A DNA stretch of 64,000 nt, taken from positions 1,647 through 65,646 of the forward strand of contig JAJPZJ010000169.1 in assembly GCA_021204405.1 (NCBI GenBank), in the 5' to 3' direction. A model generated the notes under the pieces. It saw nothing but the letters and a program-made list of their open reading frames with translations. It made no database searches and was not told the origin of the DNA. The translations under genes were made by a program, and so were the position numbers. This document shows, in pieces, positions 1 to 64,000 of this stretch (position 1 is the first letter of the stretch; each line of letters starts with the position of its first letter). The DNA is from Tannerellaceae bacterium (GTDB taxonomy: Bacteria > Bacteroidota > Bacteroidia > Bacteroidales > Tannerellaceae).

Positions 1-337
1 GTTCTCGCCGGATGGAGGTAGCAAACCTTCGGGCAAACTGGCAGAAGCCATTAATAAAACATGGGGATCGTTTGAAAACTTCCAGCAACAATTCAATGAA
101 AAGGGTACGGAACTTTTCGGCTCCGGATGGGTTTGGCTGGCTAAAGATAAAAACGGCAGCCTGACCATTGCCAAAGAAGCCAACGGAAGTAACCCTATTG
201 TCCACGGCCTTACTCCTATCCTTGGCTTTGATGTGTGGGAACATGCTTATTACCTGAACTACCAGAACTGCCGGGCAGATCATCTGAACGAGCTTTGGAA
301 AATTATTGACTGGAATGTGATAGACCAGAGGTATTAA
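1..337 (+). CDS. sodB: Fe/Mn superoxide dismutase, C-terminal part (5' end outside window)
   Basis: Frame from nt 2 reads ...LFGSGWVWLAKDKNGSL...LGFDVWEHAYYLNYQNCRADHLNELWKIIDWNVIDQRY*, the conserved C-terminal Fe/Mn-SOD domain. TAA at 335-337. Confidence 0.9.
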   Translation, partial: FSPDGGSKPSGKLAEAINKTWGSFENFQQQFNEKGTELFGSGWVWLAKDKNGSLTIAKEANGSNPIVHGLTPILGFDVWEHAYYLNYQNCRADHLNELWKIIDWNVIDQRY

Positions 338-365
338 CAAAATTGAAAGGATTAGATAGGTAAAT

Positions 366-662
366 ATGGAAAATTACAAGTTGATTGATAATGTGGCGAA
401 TGAGCAATATGAATTCCATATTGACAACCATGTATGCAAAATAGAGTACAGCAAACGCAACGGTAGTGAGATTTTATTTACCCATACCGAGATTCCACAG
501 GCAATGGAGGGCCGGGGTATTGGTAGTAAACTGGTGGAAGAGGCGCTGAAAGATGTGCACAGGCAAAACCTGCGGCTAATCCCGCTTTGCCCGTTTGTTG
601 CATGGTATATTGAATGCCATCCCGAGTGGGAAGGCGTTTTAGAAAATAAAGATAAAAGTTAA
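366..662 (+). CDS. small GNAT-like acetyltransferase (YjdJ type)
   Basis: Intact 98-aa ORF. The EGRGIGSKLVEEAL...LIPLCPFV segment is typical of the ~95-aa GNAT-like family. Confidence 0.65.
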   Translation: MENYKLIDNVANEQYEFHIDNHVCKIEYSKRNGSEILFTHTEIPQAMEGRGIGSKLVEEALKDVHRQNLRLIPLCPFVAWYIECHPEWEGVLENKDKS

Positions 663-683
663 ACCAGAACCAAAACCTTAACG

Positions 684-896
684 ATGAGTATTACGAGAGA
701 GTATACAAATGGCGAGATCACTATCATCTGGCAGCCGGAGCTGTGTGCACATGCAGGGATTTGCATTTTCGAACTTCCCAAGGTGTATTGCCCGCAGGAC
801 CGGCCGTGGATCAGGATCAACAACGCCACTACGGAGCAGTTGATCAAACAGGTTGATATGTGCCCTACCGGTGCATTGTCGTACCGGAGGAATTGA
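684..896 (+). CDS. divergent 4Fe-4S mono-cluster protein
   Basis: 70-aa ORF with CAHAGIC and MCPTGAL cysteine motifs. Lies 22 nt downstream of the GNAT-like gene. Confidence 0.65.
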   Translation: MSITREYTNGEITIIWQPELCAHAGICIFELPKVYCPQDRPWIRINNATTEQLIKQVDMCPTGALSYRRN

Positions 897-922
897 ATTA
901 TATTGAATCGCTAATGGATCTG

Positions 923-959
923 AAGGCAATTAAAAGATTTAAAGTCTTTTAATTGCCTT
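923..959 (+). terminator. rho-independent terminator
   Basis: AAGGCAATTAAAAG (923-936) pairs perfectly with CTTTTAATTGCCTT (946-959), followed by a T-rich tract. Confidence 0.65.
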
Positions 960-1047
960 TTCTTTATTGTTCATTGTCAATTATTTGCTACTTTAGTAGC
1001 GTTTTTATGGATTTAAAAATGAGTTTGAACCAACCGGAAATAATAAG

Positions 1048-61194: not shown

Positions 61195-61203
61195 GATATA
61201 AAC

Positions 61204-61806
61204 TTATTTATATTGCATCATTTTGCTAATATATTTACCTACGATATCGAATTCGAGGTTGACCACCGTACCTTTTTCTATGCGGCAGAAGTTCGTATGG
61301 TCATGGGTGTAAGGAATGATCGCTACCTGAAAGCTCTTATCTTTTGAATTACATACGGTAAGGCTGACACCGTTTACACATACCGAGCCTTTCTCGACTG
61401 TCATATAGCCCTGTTGCGCCATTTCTTTATCAAACGCATATTCGAAAGTATAATACCAGCTTCCGTCGGCCTCTTTTACTTCTGTACAGATGGCAGTCTG
61501 GTCTACGTGTCCCTGCACAATATGTCCGTCCAGGCGGCCATTCATGATCATGCTACGCTCCAGGTTAACCAGATCGCCTACCTGAAGTTTACCCAGGTTG
61601 GAGCGGTCAAGTGTTTCCTGAATAGCTGTAACCGTATAGGTATCGTCGGTCATACTAACCACCGTAAGGCATACGCCGTTATGAGCTACACTCTGGTCTA
61701 TTTTTAGTTCGTTCACAAACGAACACTTCATTGTAATATGCAGGTTTCCTTTATCCGATTCTAAAGCTACTACCTGTGCTGCTTCTTCTACAATTCCGGA
61801 AAACAT
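61204..61806 (-). CDS. ribE: riboflavin synthase alpha chain
   Basis: MFSGIVEEAAQVVALE...VAHNGVCLTV...VCVNGVSLTV, the duplicated lumazine-binding repeats. The start is taken at the internal ATG giving MFSGIVE. Confidence 0.9.
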   Translation of the reverse strand: MFSGIVEEAAQVVALESDKGNLHITMKCSFVNELKIDQSVAHNGVCLTVVSMTDDTYTVTAIQETLDRSNLGKLQVGDLVNLERSMIMNGRLDGHIVQGHVDQTAICTEVKEADGSWYYTFEYAFDKEMAQQGYMTVEKGSVCVNGVSLTVCNSKDKSFQVAIIPYTHDHTNFCRIEKGTVVNLEFDIVGKYISKMMQYK

Positions 61807-61853
61807 ATGATTATAGTTTTGAATTATTTCTTCAAAGATACGGAAATAAAATG

Positions 61854-61890
61854 AAAAAGGCTGCAAACGGAAATTGTTTGCAACCTTTTT
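61854..61890 (-). terminator. terminator of pfp
   Basis: AAAAAGGCTGCAAAC / GTTTGCAACCTTTTT (one mismatch). A T-rich tract follows on the minus strand. Confidence 0.6.
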
Positions 61891-61921
61891 CATTTTATTT
61901 AATCAGCCTGTGTTGATTAAA

Positions 61922-63568
61922 TTATTTTGCTTGTTCCAATGCTAATGTTTTTGTAGTCTGGTCGCAAACTTCTGTCGGGCCAAAGTACTGGATTGGGCCT
62001 GGGTATACATATTCTGTATTGAATGCCCAGTTATCGCGGTTGGCAGCAAACGTTTTGAAAGGTGCTCCATCCAGTTTCACCAGGGCTTTCTGGATAACCG
62101 GTTTCATTTCACCGTGACGTTTTTCCATGTTCATCATCATAGTAACAGGGATACCACCGGCAATCCATTCGCTGGCAGGTGCTGTAGTGTTACGGATAGA
62201 CGACATATAACCGGTTTTACCGGCAGCGATCAGGCAGGATGCAGTATATCCTAAGGAGTAGCAATAGTCGGCATCGTAGTTAGAAGGGGCTGCACAACGT
62301 CCTTCATAGCCGAAGAAGTGTACTAAAGAAGCAAATTTACCTTTGTATTTACCTTCCGCTTTCCATTCAGCCAAACGGTTACTGACCATTTCAGCCAATA
62401 GTTTTTCTGTTTCGATCAGCGAAACCTGTACGTTACCGTGTGGGTCACGATCTAAGGTAAGCTGACGGGCAACTCCTTCAGGAAGGCTTGCATACAGGTC
62501 GGCATTTTCTTTTGAAAGTTTGCTGATGATATAAGCGCGTTGTTCTGTTTTGTCGATATTTTTGAATTCTGCTTCGTGGTGAGCCAGATAGTCATTCAAT
62601 TCGGCAATCAGGCGTTTCATAGCCGGAATAAACTCGATCAATCCTTCAGGAATCAATACCGTACCGAAGTTATTACCCTGTTCCGCACGTTTGGCAACCA
62701 CGGTTGCGATCTGTATAATGATATCGTCGAGTGATTGTTCTTTTGCTTCTACCTCTTCAGAGATGATACAAACGTTAGGTTGTGTCTGCAAAGCACATTC
62801 CAAAGCAATATGAGAAGCCGAACGGCCCATCAATTTGATGAAGTGCCAATATTTACGGGCAGAGTTACAGTCACGCTGGATATTACCGATCACTTCAGAA
62901 TATACTTTACATGCTGTATCGAAACCGAATGAAGTTTCTATCTGTTCGTTTTTCAGGTCACCATCGATTGTTTTCGGACAACCAATTACCTGCACGCCCG
63001 AACCGTTAGCTTTGTAGTATTCAGCCAGTACACATGCGTTGGTATTAGAGTCGTCGCCACCAATGATAACAAGTGCTTTGATATCCAGTTGTTTCAGGAT
63101 TTCAAGACCTTTGTCGTATTGTGCTGTTTCTTCCAGTTTGGTACGTCCCGAGCCAATCATATCGAAACCACCGGTGTTACGGTATTCGTCGATAATATCG
63201 GCCGTTAGTTCCATATAGTTATGATCAACCAATCCACCCGGTCCCATCAGGAATCCATACAAACGTGAATCTTTATTGATCGCTTTTAATCCGTCGAATA
63301 AACCGACAATTACATTATGGCCGCCGGGAGCCTGGCCACCTGAAAGAATTACTCCCGCATTGATCGCCGGCGTTTCTACTTTTTCGCTTGCCGATTCAAA
63401 GGTAATGACCGGCATACCATACGTGTTAGGGAATAGTTTTTCAATTTCTGACTGGTCTGCAACTGATTGAGTTTTTGCACCATCAACAGCTTTTACAGCT
63501 CCTTTTAAAGCAGCAGGCACTTTAGGCTCGTAAGCTGCTCTTGCAATTTGTAAAGTACTTTTTGTCAT
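61922..63568 (-). CDS. pfp: diphosphate--fructose-6-phosphate 1-phosphotransferase (PPi-PFK, long type)
   Basis: Intact 548-aa [37 protein letters not shown] and [11 protein letters not shown] motifs. Confidence 0.9.
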
Positions 63569-63783
63569 TTCTTAATCTGATTTATTATAGAAATATTAAT
63601 TTCCTGTTTTTTTAAGCGCTACAAATATTGGATTTTTTCTCTAATAATGAAACTATATAAAGAAGTTAAGTAGAAGAAAAGAAGGGATATTGCGCGATAC
63701 AATATCCCTTAATATGTTTAAGTCAGGGAAGTCTAAATTTAATGATTTTAATTATATTTCTTCAGGGAGTAACCCATTCAGGA

Positions 63784-64000
63784 TTAATAGTACTGTTCCG
63801 TTACCGGAATGCTTAACTCTACATACACTTTACCGTTTTTAGTCATAAAATGAACTTTATCTTCCCTGGCAAGCCAACCCAGGGCCAAAAAGATAAGGGA
63901 TTCATTGTAATTAGTCATTTTACCAATTTTACGAATAGACAACGCACCTCTTTCCGATAATAGATGCCAGATAATTCCGGCACTATATCCAACCTCATTT
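63784..64000 (-). CDS. winged-helix (DUF2582-like) protein, N-terminus outside window
   Basis: The reverse frame reads ...NEVGYSAGIIWHLLSERGALSIRKIGKMTNYNESLIFLALGWLAREDKVHFMTKNGKVYVELSIPVTEQYY*, with the stop at 63784-63786. Confidence 0.55.
   Translation of the reverse strand, partial: NEVGYSAGIIWHLLSERGALSIRKIGKMTNYNESLIFLALGWLAREDKVHFMTKNGKVYVELSIPVTEQYY

What the first reader, a model, noticed from the sequence alone, without database searches (positions are those of the whole stretch)
1..64000. About 22-23 accessory loci are broken while every recognisable core gene is intact
Joining ORF-track fragments shows that 22-23 loci give a full-length, family-typical protein only if lesions are ignored. 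The lesions are 12 in-frame stops, about 22 single-base frameshifts and 2 frame-breaking tandem duplications, so at least 36 in total, or roughly one per 1.5 kb of coding DNA. All affected genes are accessory: both SusC/SusD pairs, the DUF4838 hydrolase, pectinesterase, GH13, PHP-GT4, Gfo/Idh/MocA, beta-lactamase-fold hydrolase, SDR, AKR, HAD, GNAT, GATase, TspO, type III PKS plus ICMT, ppk1/ppx and the DUF6377 regulator. The long uninterrupted ORFs are PFOR (3.5 kb), pheT (2.5 kb), GH3 (2.6 kb) and pfp (1.6 kb); trmD, ribE, yebC and dps are also intact. Random consensus errors at this density would be unlikely to spare the three longest core genes. That argues for real mutations filtered by selection, for example a host-restricted lineage in reductive evolution or a hypermutator losing glycan-foraging capacity. 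Caveats: the intact/broken split is post hoc, and an error-prone assembly cannot be excluded from sequence alone.
Basis: partly seen in the sequence, partly recalled or inferred. Interest (0 to 1): 0.65.

Follow-up and report, generated by a model that had tools for sequence, protein, structure and literature searches.

The report
Genuine mass pseudogenisation in a Tannerellaceae genome
Half of the genes in this 64-kb stretch of an uncultured Parabacteroides-like bacterium are truly broken by stop codons, frameshifts and small duplications that recur base-for-base in independent metagenome assemblies, so this is a lineage in active genome decay and not a sequencing artefact.

Summary
I count 22 broken genes out of 44 complete genes. 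They carry about 34 frame-destroying lesions: 11 in-frame stops, about 21 small frameshifts, and two frame-breaking tandem duplications of 28 and 14 bp. No housekeeping gene is hit.

The window comes from an NCBI MAG labelled "Tannerellaceae bacterium" (65.7-kb contig). Its pheT is about 85% identical to Parabacteroides goldsteinii.

The key new result is that the lesions are real. Independent Logan assemblies of at least five other sequencing runs, plus a second NCBI MAG, carry the same sequence. Runs SRR15221337, SRR15221346 and SRR15221341 match the window at 100%. A second haplotype about 0.1% divergent shares most lesions, and four lesions are polymorphic between haplotypes. For example, GATase reads TAG here and CAG, giving an intact gene, elsewhere.

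Five stops trace to TGG or CAG codons, so they arose by transitions. Between-haplotype SNPs are 35 transitions to 1 transversion. About half of the frameshifts lie in homopolymers.

Among non-housekeeping genes the lesions fit a uniform Poisson process of about 0.75 per kb. Only housekeeping genes are spared (p≈4e-4).

Best reading: early-stage genome decay under broadly relaxed selection, possibly with weakened mismatch repair. Habitat and repair-gene status could not be determined. One in-frame 480-bp duplication in SusC is not reproduced and may be an assembly artefact.

The parts
2332..3708 (+). Gfo/Idh/MocA oxidoreductase pseudogene. In-frame TGA at 3163-3165 and TAG at 3523-3525. The other haplotype reads CAG at 3523 but has its own frameshift (A5 to A4 at 3298).
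   Evidence: Pfam split across fragments. Frames. Polymorphisms. Gene calls in L096-L098.
6430..7578 (+). Beta-lactamase-fold serine hydrolase pseudogene. In-frame TGA at 7129-7131 and at 7381-7383.
   Evidence: Pfam. Both stops align with an invariant Trp in 8 full-length orthologues of 384-392 aa. Reproduced in L106 and L107.
8778..9555 (-). SDR pseudogene. Frameshift in the T7 run at 8934-8940.
   Evidence: adh_short_C2 positions 1-190 and 189-233 lie in different frames. Junction window. Viterbi. L106/L107.
9784..10279 (+). TspO pseudogene broken by a perfect 28-bp tandem duplication at 9920-9977.
   Evidence: TRF. Three-frame reading shows 'SIFPIAWSI' twice in different frames. Logan calls TspO as 54 + 96 aa.
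10486..11928 (+). 3-keto-disaccharide-hydrolase / PHP-like fusion pseudogene. In-frame TGA at 11431-11433.
   Evidence: Pfam. The same frame continues after the stop. L106 is 100% identical.
12159..12724 (-). GNAT (Acetyltransf_3) pseudogene. Frameshift within 12479-12548.
   Evidence: Pfam. Logan + 118 aa. L111 is 100% identical.
13065..15700 (+). PHP-domain / GT4 glycosyltransferase pseudogene. Frameshift within 13457-13544.
   Evidence: Frames. Pfam GT4. Logan + 715 aa.
15690..17316 (+). GH13 alpha-amylase-family pseudogene. A frameshift at about 15700-15732 separates the start 'MTEKKEQLT' from 'PWWQTAVFYHIYP...'.
   Evidence: Three-frame reading. Pfam Alpha-amylase 2-446/446 begins right after a stop. 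Viterbi. L111.
18511..19028 (-). ICMT-family methyltransferase pseudogene. Frameshift within 18690-18837.
   Evidence: ICMT profile split across two fragments. Frames. The same sequence is present in both haplotypes.
19036..20090 (-). Type III polyketide synthase pseudogene. Frameshift within 19296-19377.
   Evidence: Chal_sti_synt_N and _C lie in different frames. Logan + 113 aa in SRR15221337, 55, 46 and 49.
20860..22950 (+). ppk1 pseudogene with two frameshifts in A-runs (A7 to A6 at about 21355-21360; A7 to A8 at 21601-21608). There is also an in-frame 21-bp tandem duplication at 22887-22928, absent from the SRR15221355 contig; it is not a lesion.
   Evidence: The corrected 695-aa translation is collinear with orthologues. 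TRF. Polymorphic duplication. Gene calls.
22947..23854 (+). ppx pseudogene. Frameshift at the A5T4 tract, about 23186-23196.
   Evidence: Three-frame reading. Pfam Ppx-GppA from position 54 onwards. 107 + 212 aa in both haplotypes.
24547..26749 (-). DUF4838/GH20b hydrolase pseudogene with about 4 lesions: TAA at 26249-26251, a frameshift at about 25675, a stop at about 25605, and a frameshift at about 25019-25031.
   Evidence: Fragments in three frames. Pfam. Four separate gene calls in both haplotypes.
29775..31299 (+). Pectinesterase pseudogene. Frameshift in the G6 run at 30758-30763 (junction window only 14 nt) and TAG at 31117-31119.
   Evidence: Pfam positions 2-67 and 119-244 lie in different frames.. 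L112-L114 are 100% identical.
33415..34122 (-). Class-I glutamine amidotransferase broken by a single TAG at 33871-33873. The lesion is polymorphic: CAG, giving an intact 235-aa gene, in SRR15221355 and GCA_020860665.1.
39767..41406 (+). SusR-like regulator (TPR + DUF6377) pseudogene. Frameshift within 40357-40438, with no homopolymer.
   Evidence: Logan + 334 aa in SRR15221337 and SRR15221346.
41620..44641 (+). SusC-like TonB-dependent transporter 1 pseudogene. Frameshift at about 43645-43651 (A5).
   Evidence: Logan + 302 aa.
44653..46253 (+). SusD-like 1. ATG at 44653 is followed by an A6 run (44656-44661). An A7 run would be needed to stay in frame with 'KIYIFLATICMFSVCS...', so the signal peptide and start are lost.
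   Evidence: Sequence reading. Gene callers start at the internal Met at 44688. This lesion is inferred without an orthologue alignment.
46418..48017 (-). SusD-like 2 pseudogene. A frameshift at about 46585-46595 cuts off the conserved C-terminus ('RIPFPPDEQNNNTANYNKAV...'). A frame-breaking perfect 14-bp tandem duplication lies at 46489-46517.
   Evidence: Pfam SusD-like covers only positions 1-448 of 495. Three-frame reading. TRF. L109 and L110 are 100% identical.
48057..51695 (-). SusC-like transporter 2 pseudogene. Frameshifts within 48325-48359, 49058-49149 and 50295-50353, and TAA at 48736-48738. There is also an in-frame 480-bp tandem duplication at 49292-50251 that is not reproduced.
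   Evidence: Logan contig SRR15221337_681 has the same four lesions but only a single copy of the 480-bp unit.
52448..53223 (-). HAD (Cof-type) phosphatase pseudogene. Frameshift within 52696-52861.
   Evidence: Hydrolase_3 positions 1-155 and 170-254 lie in different frames. 176 + 100 aa in five runs, covering both haplotypes and a run outside the SRR152213xx accession block (SRR15900781).
53337..54369 (+). Aldo/keto reductase pseudogene. TAG at 53427-53429, and a +1 T insertion at about 53683 (CTG to CTTG). The insertion is specific to the window haplotype.
   Evidence: The stop aligns with Trp of PDB 4xk2, and the junction is collinear. SRR15221355 and SRR15221339 lack the insertion and + 302 aa.
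34255..38339 (.). Intact housekeeping block: yebC (34255-34974, -), pheT (35005-37467, -) and trmD (37662-38339, +).
   Evidence: Full-length alignment to orthologues in 12 Tannerellaceae loci. Between-haplotype SNPs in pheT are all synonymous.
55296..63568 (.). Intact block: dps (55296-55790, +), PFOR (55868-59416, -), AAA_14 ATPase (59447-60625, -), ribE (61204-61806, -) and pfp (61922-63568, -).
   Evidence: Pfam. Gene calls in GCA_020860665.1 contig L094. No frame events.
26995..29637 (+). Intact GH3 beta-glucosidase, the longest non-housekeeping gene without a lesion.
   Evidence: Aligns over residues 3-874 of 875 of the L001 orthologue. Under the rate for non-housekeeping genes, a 2.6-kb gene escapes by chance with p≈0.14.

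Best explanation
These are real inactivating mutations in a natural, uncultured Parabacteroides-like lineage (NCBI MAG 'Tannerellaceae bacterium'). Most are shared by both haplotypes wherever both are covered; four are polymorphic.

The lineage is at an early stage of genome decay. Selection has been relaxed on essentially all non-housekeeping functions: glycan uptake and degradation, polyphosphate metabolism, secondary metabolism and assorted oxidoreductases. Stops, slippage frameshifts and small tandem duplications therefore accumulate in those genes at a uniform neutral rate of about 0.75 lesions per kb. Hits in housekeeping genes are removed by selection.

The mutational supply is dominated by transitions and by homopolymer slippage. 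That fits weak or lost mismatch repair, which often accompanies host restriction.

Shown: the lesions exist, they recur in independent assemblies, several are polymorphic, decay continues in genes that are already dead, and housekeeping genes are spared.
Inferred: the cause of the relaxed selection (host restriction or a small effective population) and any repair defect.
For: (1) Reality of the lesions. Logan contigs from SRR15221337, SRR15221346 and SRR15221341 are 100% identical to the window across 1-3923, 5694-18188, 18431-31382, 32452-52266 and 52239-56105. All ~34 lesions fall in these intervals.

(2) A second haplotype, seen in SRR15221355, SRR15221349, SRR15221339 and GCA_020860665.1, has no indel and no change at the stop codons across 18431-26778. 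It therefore carries the same ICMT, PKS III, ppk1, ppx and DUF4838 lesions. It also carries the same HAD lesion and the Gfo stop at 3163.

(3) Polymorphic lesions. GATase and Gfo-3523 read TAG here and CAG in the other haplotype. The AKR +T insertion is found only here. An A-run deletion in Gfo is found only in the other haplotype. Three of these four lie in genes already broken by a shared lesion, as expected for neutral decay.

(4) Five of the 11 stops derive from TGG or CAG codons by transition.

(5) Between-haplotype SNPs are 35 transitions to 1 transversion. This gives p=4e-4 against a 3:1 ratio.

(6) Roughly half of the frameshifts sit in runs of 5 or more identical bases, which make up 2.8% of the window. 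Others sit in no run at all (SusR, two in SusC2, AKR).

(7) SNPs in broken genes are 10 non-synonymous or nonsense to 4 synonymous. In intact genes the ratio is 8:7, and all three SNPs in pheT are synonymous.

(8) Lesions among the 36 non-housekeeping genes fit a homogeneous Poisson process (unhit genes 15 observed, 17 expected; chi-square p=0.91). The 11.3 kb of housekeeping genes has none (p=6e-4).

(9) Orthologues elsewhere are full length. No intact allele above 83% identity exists for ppk1, or above 81% for the beta-lactamase-fold gene, among 5.8 billion proteins.

(10) In a contig that leaves the window at 52228, an EamA transporter and a GH78 rhamnosidase are also frameshifted.
Against: - No IS elements or other mobile-element expansion is visible in the window. 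There is also no obvious drop in G+C (0.37-0.50) and no large deletions. These usually accompany symbiont-type decay, although they are late or variable features.
- Only about 68 kb of a genome of unknown size was examined.
- All runs but one (SRR15900781) fall in one block of neighbouring SRA accessions, whose habitat I could not identify.
- The status of the repair genes is unknown.
- A very high ratio of transitions to transversions can also occur at very low divergence without any repair defect.
- The MAG contig is not flawless. A 480-bp tandem duplication is absent from the Logan contig, and an alternative junction exists at a repeat near 52.2 kb.
- The 'housekeeping' class was defined by me after seeing the data, although on conventional grounds.
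Confidence: 0.75

Rival explanations
1. A hypermutator without any change of lifestyle. A free-living gut strain that lost mismatch repair accumulates disabling transitions and homopolymer indels faster than selection can purge them in genes that are only weakly or conditionally useful. There is no host restriction and no shift in population size.
For: Between-haplotype SNPs are 35 transitions to 1 transversion. All characterised nonsense mutations are transitions. Many frameshifts are ±1 changes in A/T/G runs. Several perfect small tandem duplications occur within 64 kb.
Against: The lesions are mostly older than the haplotype split and are shared by two haplotypes across at least ten runs, so the state is long-lived. 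Mutator lineages are usually transient. Decay is uniform across all non-housekeeping genes, including both SusC/SusD systems that a free-living gut Bacteroidales should need. That points to relaxed selection and not merely to raised mutation supply. The two ideas are not exclusive.
Confidence: 0.15
2. Sequencing or assembly error. The lesions are consensus errors of an error-prone assembly, such as homopolymer miscalls or poor polishing.
For: Roughly half of the frameshifts are in homopolymers. The omnibus distribution of lesions over genes cannot be told apart from random. One 480-bp tandem duplication in the MAG contig is not reproduced.
Against: A different assembler (Logan) gives base-identical sequence from at least three runs. 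A second haplotype, in three more runs and a second NCBI MAG, keeps most of the lesions. Lesions segregate with haplotype-defining SNPs. A third of the lesions are substitutions creating stops at conserved Trp or Gln codons. Several indels are not in homopolymers. Housekeeping genes have none in 11.3 kb.
Confidence: 0.03
3. Chimeric population consensus. The MAG merges co-existing strains, and the broken frames arise where the assembler switches between divergent alleles in strain-variable accessory regions.
For: Two haplotypes do co-occur within the same block of neighbouring SRA runs. An alternative junction exists at a repeat near 52.2 kb.
Against: The haplotypes differ by only about 1 SNP per kb and three small indels in about 33 kb. 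Switching between them could create at most the four polymorphic lesions. Contigs assembled from single runs of either haplotype carry the shared lesions.
Confidence: 0.03
4. Recoding. The genes are functional because stops are read through (for example UGA read as Trp, or a suppressor tRNA) and frameshifts are rescued by programmed frameshifting or transcriptional slippage.
For: Four or five of the in-frame stops are TGA, two of them shown to sit at conserved Trp positions. Some frameshifts lie in long A/T runs where polymerase slippage could restore a fraction of transcripts, as described for insect endosymbionts (background knowledge).
Against: All three stop codons occur in frame. TGA terminates 5 intact genes, and PFOR, pheT and GH3 contain no in-frame TGA at all. 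Two stops are polymorphic against CAG. There are no tRNA genes in the window. The 28-bp and 14-bp duplications and the non-homopolymer frameshifts cannot be rescued. Multiple lesions per gene and independent lesions in the two haplotypes are the signature of dead genes.
Confidence: 0.01

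Closest known systems
Early-stage genome erosion in recently host-restricted bacteria (Sodalis glossinidius, Mycobacterium leprae, Serratia symbiotica, Sodalis/Symbiopectobacterium endosymbionts of mealybugs)
   Same: About half of the genes are recognisable pseudogenes with roughly one disabling lesion per kb. The lesions are a mix of nonsense mutations and small indels. Housekeeping genes are spared, gene order and length are still preserved, and decay is ongoing. Abstracts of PMC7067036 and PMC13345370 (listed) describe about 50% pseudogenes in such genomes.
   Different: Those are Proteobacteria or Actinobacteria with known intracellular or host-bound lifestyles, and usually show IS expansion. 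Here the organism is a Bacteroidales (Tannerellaceae) of unknown habitat, known only from metagenomes. No IS element is seen in 64 kb, and genome size and lifestyle are unknown.
Bacteroidales symbionts of gut protists (Candidatus Azobacteroides pseudotrichonymphae; Tannerellaceae ectosymbionts such as Synergitannerella mixotrichae, PMC12483993)
   Same: They belong to the same order or family. They are host-associated lineages for which pseudogenes and genome reduction are discussed (background knowledge).
   Different: The window's lineage is much closer to vertebrate-gut Parabacteroides (pheT 82-86% to P. goldsteinii, P. distasonis and a human-gut MAG) than to termite Tannerellaceae (64-70%). 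No link to a protist host was shown.
Mismatch-repair-deficient mutator lineages (for example mutS/mutL mutators in chronic Pseudomonas aeruginosa infection, or E. coli MMR-deficient mutation-accumulation lines)
   Same: The substitution spectrum is dominated by transitions, and ±1 indels occur in homopolymers. Comparison based on background knowledge.
   Different: No repair gene was examined. The state here is shared by two haplotypes and many samples, and the loss extends uniformly to all non-housekeeping genes.

Membership tests
Genuine pseudogenes (as opposed to assembly or sequencing artefacts) | The lesions are reproduced in independent assemblies and libraries | tested here: met
   100% identical Logan contigs from SRR15221337, 46 and 41 cover every lesion. 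The second haplotype and a second NCBI MAG share most of them.
Genuine pseudogenes (as opposed to assembly or sequencing artefacts) | Full-length intact orthologues exist and the conceptual translation is collinear with them | tested here: met
   Beta-lactamase-fold gene: 100% coverage of orthologues of 384-392 aa, with stops at an invariant Trp. ppk1: collinear after two 1-nt corrections. AKR: collinear with PDB 4xk2. The other loci are supported only by Pfam profile coordinates.
Genuine pseudogenes (as opposed to assembly or sequencing artefacts) | Signs of neutral evolution: several lesions per gene, lineage-specific extra lesions, a non-synonymous to synonymous ratio near the neutral value | tested here: met
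   Gfo and AKR carry haplotype-specific lesions on top of shared ones. The ratio is 10:4 in broken genes and 8:7 in intact ones. Numbers are small.
Genome in reductive evolution (host-restricted or symbiont-type decay) | High pseudogene fraction with housekeeping genes spared | tested here: met
   22 of 44 genes are broken, and 0 of 8 housekeeping genes (p≈4e-4). Two further broken genes lie outside the window.
Genome in reductive evolution (host-restricted or symbiont-type decay) | Proliferation of IS or other mobile elements | tested here: not met
   No transposase was found in the Pfam scans or gene calls of the window. Only short palindromic intergenic repeats (about 100 nt, 5 copies) and Acido-Lenti-1-like motifs are present.
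Genome in reductive evolution (host-restricted or symbiont-type decay) | AT enrichment, reduced genome size, documented host-restricted lifestyle | not testable with these tools
   G+C is 0.37-0.50, similar to Parabacteroides. Genome size and sample metadata were not available.
Mismatch-repair-deficient hypermutator | Transition-dominated base substitutions and ±1 indels in homopolymers | tested here: met
   35 transitions to 1 transversion. ppk1 A7 to A6 and A7 to A8, SDR T7, pectinesterase G6, SusD1 A6. About half of the indels are not in long runs.
Mismatch-repair-deficient hypermutator | A disabling lesion in mutS, mutL or another repair gene | not testable with these tools
   No repair gene lies in the window or in any fetched locus.
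Alternative genetic code (UGA read as Trp, code 4 or 25) | A single reassigned stop codon used in frame throughout, including in core genes | tested here: not met
   In-frame TGA, TAG and TAA all occur. Core genes have no in-frame stop. TGA terminates 5 intact genes.

The most novel reading that the evidence does not exclude
This is the first documented case of early, Sodalis-like genome erosion in a Parabacteroides-related member of the Bacteroidales. It would be a nascent obligate (perhaps intracellular or protist- or host-cell-bound) symbiont caught soon after the lifestyle switch, with nearly all non-housekeeping genes decaying neutrally and two strains still segregating new lesions.
Probability: 0.3. 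Interest if true: 0.8.

Novelty: new member of a known kind. Interest (0 to 1): 0.6.

Why it matters
Gut Bacteroidales are models of metabolic versatility, and their genomes normally carry only a few per cent pseudogenes. A Parabacteroides-like lineage with half of its genes freshly broken, including both SusC/SusD glycan-import systems in this region, would be a rare snapshot of the first phase of genome erosion in this phylum. Two co-circulating haplotypes that still add lesions allow the rate and spectrum of decay to be measured directly.

There is also a practical warning. Such genomes are likely to fail completeness filters and be dismissed as bad assemblies.

Tried and rejected
(1) An exact look-up of PFOR and of the SusC2 fragment containing the 480-bp duplication found nothing. 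The PFOR miss reflects an amino-acid difference between haplotypes and fragmented contigs. The SusC2 miss reflects the absence of the duplication from Logan assemblies.

(2) The genome-contig scan with pheT gave 80 relatives, but synteny is limited to GH3, yebC, pheT and trmD. They could not serve as references for the accessory loci.

(3) A 4,043-aa chimeric query joining 12 broken loci returned one irrelevant hit and wasted one protein search.

(4) PDB searches for the pectinesterase C-terminus and for DUF4838 found no homologue at the thresholds used. The Gfo/Idh/MocA hit did not reach the stops. The ancestral codons of six stops therefore remain unassigned.

(5) Literature searches for the run, MAG and WGS accessions found nothing relevant. 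A search for pseudogene-rich Tannerellaceae returned only general papers on symbionts.

(6) A run of five G-to-A differences on one strand between 33.8 and 38 kb suggested a deaminase or mutagen signature. It was rejected because across all compared regions the four transition types occur in both directions.

(7) Motif scans for mutS, mutL and ung in all fetched loci found none.

(8) An overdispersion or clustering test of lesions per gene was not significant. I do not use clustering as evidence.

Full report
**What the window is**

The 64-kb window has 37-50% G+C and a typical Bacteroidales gene content. A scan of one genome per species with its PheT found the best matches in Parabacteroides: 86% to P. 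goldsteinii, 85% to a human-gut MAG and 82% to P. distasonis. Termite Tannerellaceae reach only 64-70%.

An exact look-up of three window proteins shows they are deposited as "Tannerellaceae bacterium" in two NCBI MAGs (MCD82652xx and MCC81439xx). The longest contig carrying them is 65,739 bp, which is evidently the source of the window. Synteny with named relatives is limited to GH3, yebC, pheT and trmD.

**Checking the observation**

I listed all stop-to-stop segments and scanned them against Pfam. I read problem regions in three frames. I traced the coding frame with a codon-usage Viterbi model trained on the long intact genes. I aligned three loci to full-length homologues.

The result is that 22 of 44 complete genes are broken:
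- Gfo/Idh/MocA
- a beta-lactamase-fold hydrolase
- SDR
- TspO
- a 3-keto-disaccharide-hydrolase/PHP-like fusion
- a GNAT
- PHP-GT4
- GH13
- ICMT
- type III PKS
- ppk1
- ppx
- DUF4838
- pectinesterase
- GATase
- the SusR-like DUF6377 regulator
- both SusC genes
- both SusD genes
- HAD
- AKR

The lesions are 11 in-frame stops, about 21 frameshifts of 1-2 nt, and two frame-breaking perfect tandem duplications. The duplications are 28 bp in TspO and 14 bp near the 3' end of the second SusD.

- The ppk1 "stop" at 21595 is really two compensating frameshifts in poly-A runs.
- The 3-keto/PHP gene is an extra broken locus.
- About 14 non-housekeeping genes are intact.

**Are the lesions more than chance, and are they non-random?**

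Omnibus tests say the lesions are not clustered. With 32 lesions placed at random in proportion to gene length, 20.6 genes are expected to be hit. The count at that stage was 21, before SusD2 was recognised as broken (p=0.68). The total length of unhit genes is also unremarkable (p=0.22).

The non-randomness lies in which genes escape. The conventional housekeeping set is yebC, pheT, trmD, ribE, pfp, PFOR, dps and the AhpC-family peroxiredoxin, 11.3 kb in all. It has no lesion, with p=6e-4, or about 4e-4 with the final count of 34.

Among the other 36 genes the lesions fit a homogeneous Poisson process at about 0.74 per kb. Seventeen unhit genes were expected and 15 observed, with chi-square p=0.91. 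There is therefore no evidence that any non-housekeeping gene in the window is still protected. GH3 at 2.6 kb would escape by chance about one time in seven.

**Are the lesions real?**

This was the decisive question, and it could be answered. Exact-protein look-ups retrieved contigs of the same species from Logan assemblies of public runs and from a second NCBI MAG, GCA_020860665.1. The look-ups used yebC, trmD, YjbR, Dps, the small GNAT, GlcU, SusD2 and several pseudogene fragments. The runs were SRR15221337, 46, 41, 55, 49, 39, 05, 53 and 58, plus SRR15900781.

Contigs from SRR15221337, 46 and 41 are 100% identical to the window over these intervals:
- 1-3923
- 5694-18188
- 18431-31382
- 32452-52266
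- 52239-56105

Every one of the ~34 lesions lies inside these intervals. The gene callers split the same genes in the same places. Examples are SusR 224 + 334 aa, SusC 703 + 302 aa, TspO 54 + 96 aa, PKS 265 + 113 aa, HAD 176 + 100 aa and DUF4838 in four pieces.

A second haplotype is present in SRR15221355, 49 and 39 and in GCA_020860665.1. It differs by about 1 SNP per kb. Across 18431-26778 it has no indel, apart from an in-frame 21-bp duplication, and no change at the stop codons. It therefore carries the same ICMT, PKS, ppk1, ppx and DUF4838 lesions. It also carries the same HAD frameshift and the same Gfo stop at 3163.

Consensus or polishing errors cannot recur base-for-base in different libraries, different assemblers and two haplotypes.

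**Polymorphic lesions show ongoing decay**

Four lesions differ between the haplotypes:
- The GATase stop (33871-33873) is TAG here and CAG in the other haplotype, where the gene is called intact at 235 aa.
- The second Gfo stop (3523) is TAG here and CAG there. The other haplotype instead has its own A5-to-A4 frameshift at 3298.
- The AKR +T insertion at about 53683 exists only in the window haplotype. The other haplotype has only the shared stop and is called as 31 + 302 aa.

Three of these four lesions fall in genes already killed by a shared lesion. That is what neutral decay predicts.

SNPs in broken genes are 10 non-synonymous or nonsense to 4 synonymous. In intact genes the ratio is 8:7, and the three SNPs in pheT are all synonymous. 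The numbers are small, but the direction is as expected.

**Mutational spectrum**

Five stops can be traced to their ancestral codons:
- Both beta-lactamase TGAs replace an invariant Trp in eight orthologues.
- The AKR TAG replaces the Trp of PDB 4xk2.
- Two TAGs are polymorphic with CAG.

All five are G:C-to-A:T transitions. Of 36 between-haplotype SNPs, 35 are transitions, which gives p=4e-4 against a 3:1 expectation.

Several frameshifts are ±1 changes in runs:
- ppk1: A7 to A6 and A7 to A8
- SDR: T7
- pectinesterase: G6, pinned to a 14-nt junction window
- SusD1: A6
- SusC1: A5

Others lie in no run at all, namely SusR, two in SusC2 and the AKR CTG-to-CTTG insertion. Runs of 5 or more bases make up only 2.8% of the window, so slippage sites are enriched but not exclusive.

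The window also holds several perfect short tandem duplications of 11-28 bp. Together this is the spectrum expected from replication slippage plus transition-biased substitution, as in mismatch-repair-poor lineages. No repair gene could be inspected.

**Age and relatives**

No intact allele of ppk1 or of the beta-lactamase-fold gene exists above 83% and 81% identity respectively among 5.8 billion proteins. The only near-identical hit is another fragment. The inactivations are therefore older than the 0.1% haplotype split but young enough that every gene is still recognisable.

A contig from SRR15221346 leaves the window sequence at 52228, next to a palindromic repeat. It runs into an EamA transporter and a GH78 rhamnosidase, and both are also frameshifted. 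The decay therefore extends beyond the window.

**Interpretation**

The best explanation is real genome decay. Selection has been relaxed on essentially all non-housekeeping functions, so lesions accumulate neutrally there and are purged from housekeeping genes.

This resembles the early erosion seen in recently host-restricted bacteria such as Sodalis glossinidius and Mycobacterium leprae. Those genomes carry about 40-50% pseudogenes at roughly one lesion per kb.

Features that would strengthen membership of that class are missing or untestable:
- No IS expansion is seen in the window.
- There is no obvious fall in G+C.
- Genome size, habitat and host are unknown.

A pure hypermutator explanation fits the spectrum. 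It explains less well the persistence across haplotypes and samples, or the uniform loss that includes both glycan-import systems. The two explanations may act together.

Three other explanations are effectively excluded:
- Assembly error is excluded by the independent assemblies.
- Strain-chimeric consensus could produce at most the four polymorphic lesions.
- Recoding fails for four reasons. All three stop codons occur in frame. TGA terminates intact genes. Core genes have no in-frame stops. The duplications cannot be read through.

**Caveats on the assembly**

The in-frame 480-bp tandem duplication in SusC2 (49292-50251, one mismatch between copies) is present in the window. The Logan contig of SRR15221337 passes through a single copy. 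The duplication may be a MAG assembly artefact or a feature collapsed by the de Bruijn assembler, and I do not count it as a lesion.

The join between HAD and SusC2 across the repeat at about 52.2 kb has an alternative in another run. Neither point affects the other lesions.

**Verdict**

The phenomenon is of a known kind (mass pseudogenisation and genome erosion) but occurs in an unexpected lineage, a Parabacteroides-like Tannerellaceae. Interest is moderate to high, and depends on a genome-wide census and on learning the organism's habitat.

Noticed in passing
window 49292-50251: An in-frame 480-bp tandem duplication (160 codons, one mismatch between copies) lies inside the broken SusC2 gene. 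The otherwise identical Logan contig SRR15221337_681 contains only one copy. It is either a misassembly in the MAG contig or a real duplication collapsed by the k-mer assembler.
   Followed up: partly
window 52228-52388; locus L115 2223-6650: A contig from SRR15221346 follows the window from 54449 down to 52228 and then continues into different genes (a broken EamA transporter and a broken GH78 rhamnosidase) instead of SusC2. Other contigs stop at 52239-52266. This is a fork in the assembly graph at a palindromic repeat, so the MAG join or the genome arrangement here is ambiguous.
   Followed up: partly
window 7747-7849, 11951-12090, 18143-18264, 23861-23964, 52269-52388: Five copies of an intergenic palindromic element of about 100 nt (arms TGTTCCCCGCGCAGGCGGGGATCGCA / TGCGATCCCCGCCTGCGCGGGGAACA) sit mostly at gene ends. 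It looks REP- or MITE-like and has no Rfam match at gathering threshold.
   Followed up: partly
window 18284-18328(-), 18439-18484(+), 60882-60926(-), 61035-61079(+); related copy 39471-39544: Four matches to the Rfam motif Acido-Lenti-1 RNA (RF01687, 40-47 bits, gathering score 37) are arranged as two inverted pairs about 150 nt apart in intergenic DNA. A fifth related copy lies upstream of the SusR-like gene.
   Followed up: no
window 31330-31401 (-): A full-length match to the Bacteroidetes FopS sRNA family (RF04319, 75.6 bits) lies between the broken pectinesterase and ThuA.
   Followed up: no
window 37547-37602, 22887-22928 and 44685-44705: Further perfect short tandem duplications: 28 bp in the pheT-trmD intergenic region; 21 bp in frame at the 3' end of ppk1 (absent from the SRR15221355 contig); and an 11-bp repeat in the SusD1 signal-peptide region. 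The number of young duplications in 64 kb is unusual.
   Followed up: partly
window 17421-17574 (ORF 17291-17686, +): A 33-nt unit is repeated about 4.4 times at about 70% identity, downstream of GH13. In one frame it encodes an 11-residue repeat (FGFIPDIF-like). There is no Pfam match, and it is unclear whether it is coding.
   Followed up: no
window 33873-37932: Five consecutive differences between haplotypes are all A in the window and G in the other haplotype on the + strand. Elsewhere the transitions go in all four directions, so this looks like a chance run or a small recombined tract and not a strand-specific mutational signature.
   Followed up: yes
window 23819-24433 (-): The MaoC-dehydratase ORF (204 aa) reads on for about 60 codons beyond the usual domain end into the palindromic repeat at 23861-23964. 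The frame tracer flags a shift near 23893. Its natural stop may have been lost, which would make this a 23rd damaged gene.
   Followed up: no
window 3911-5793: An intact three-gene set ends in a GGGtGRT-family protein (PF14057) and lies next to the decayed Gfo/Idh/MocA gene. Its function is unknown.
   Followed up: no
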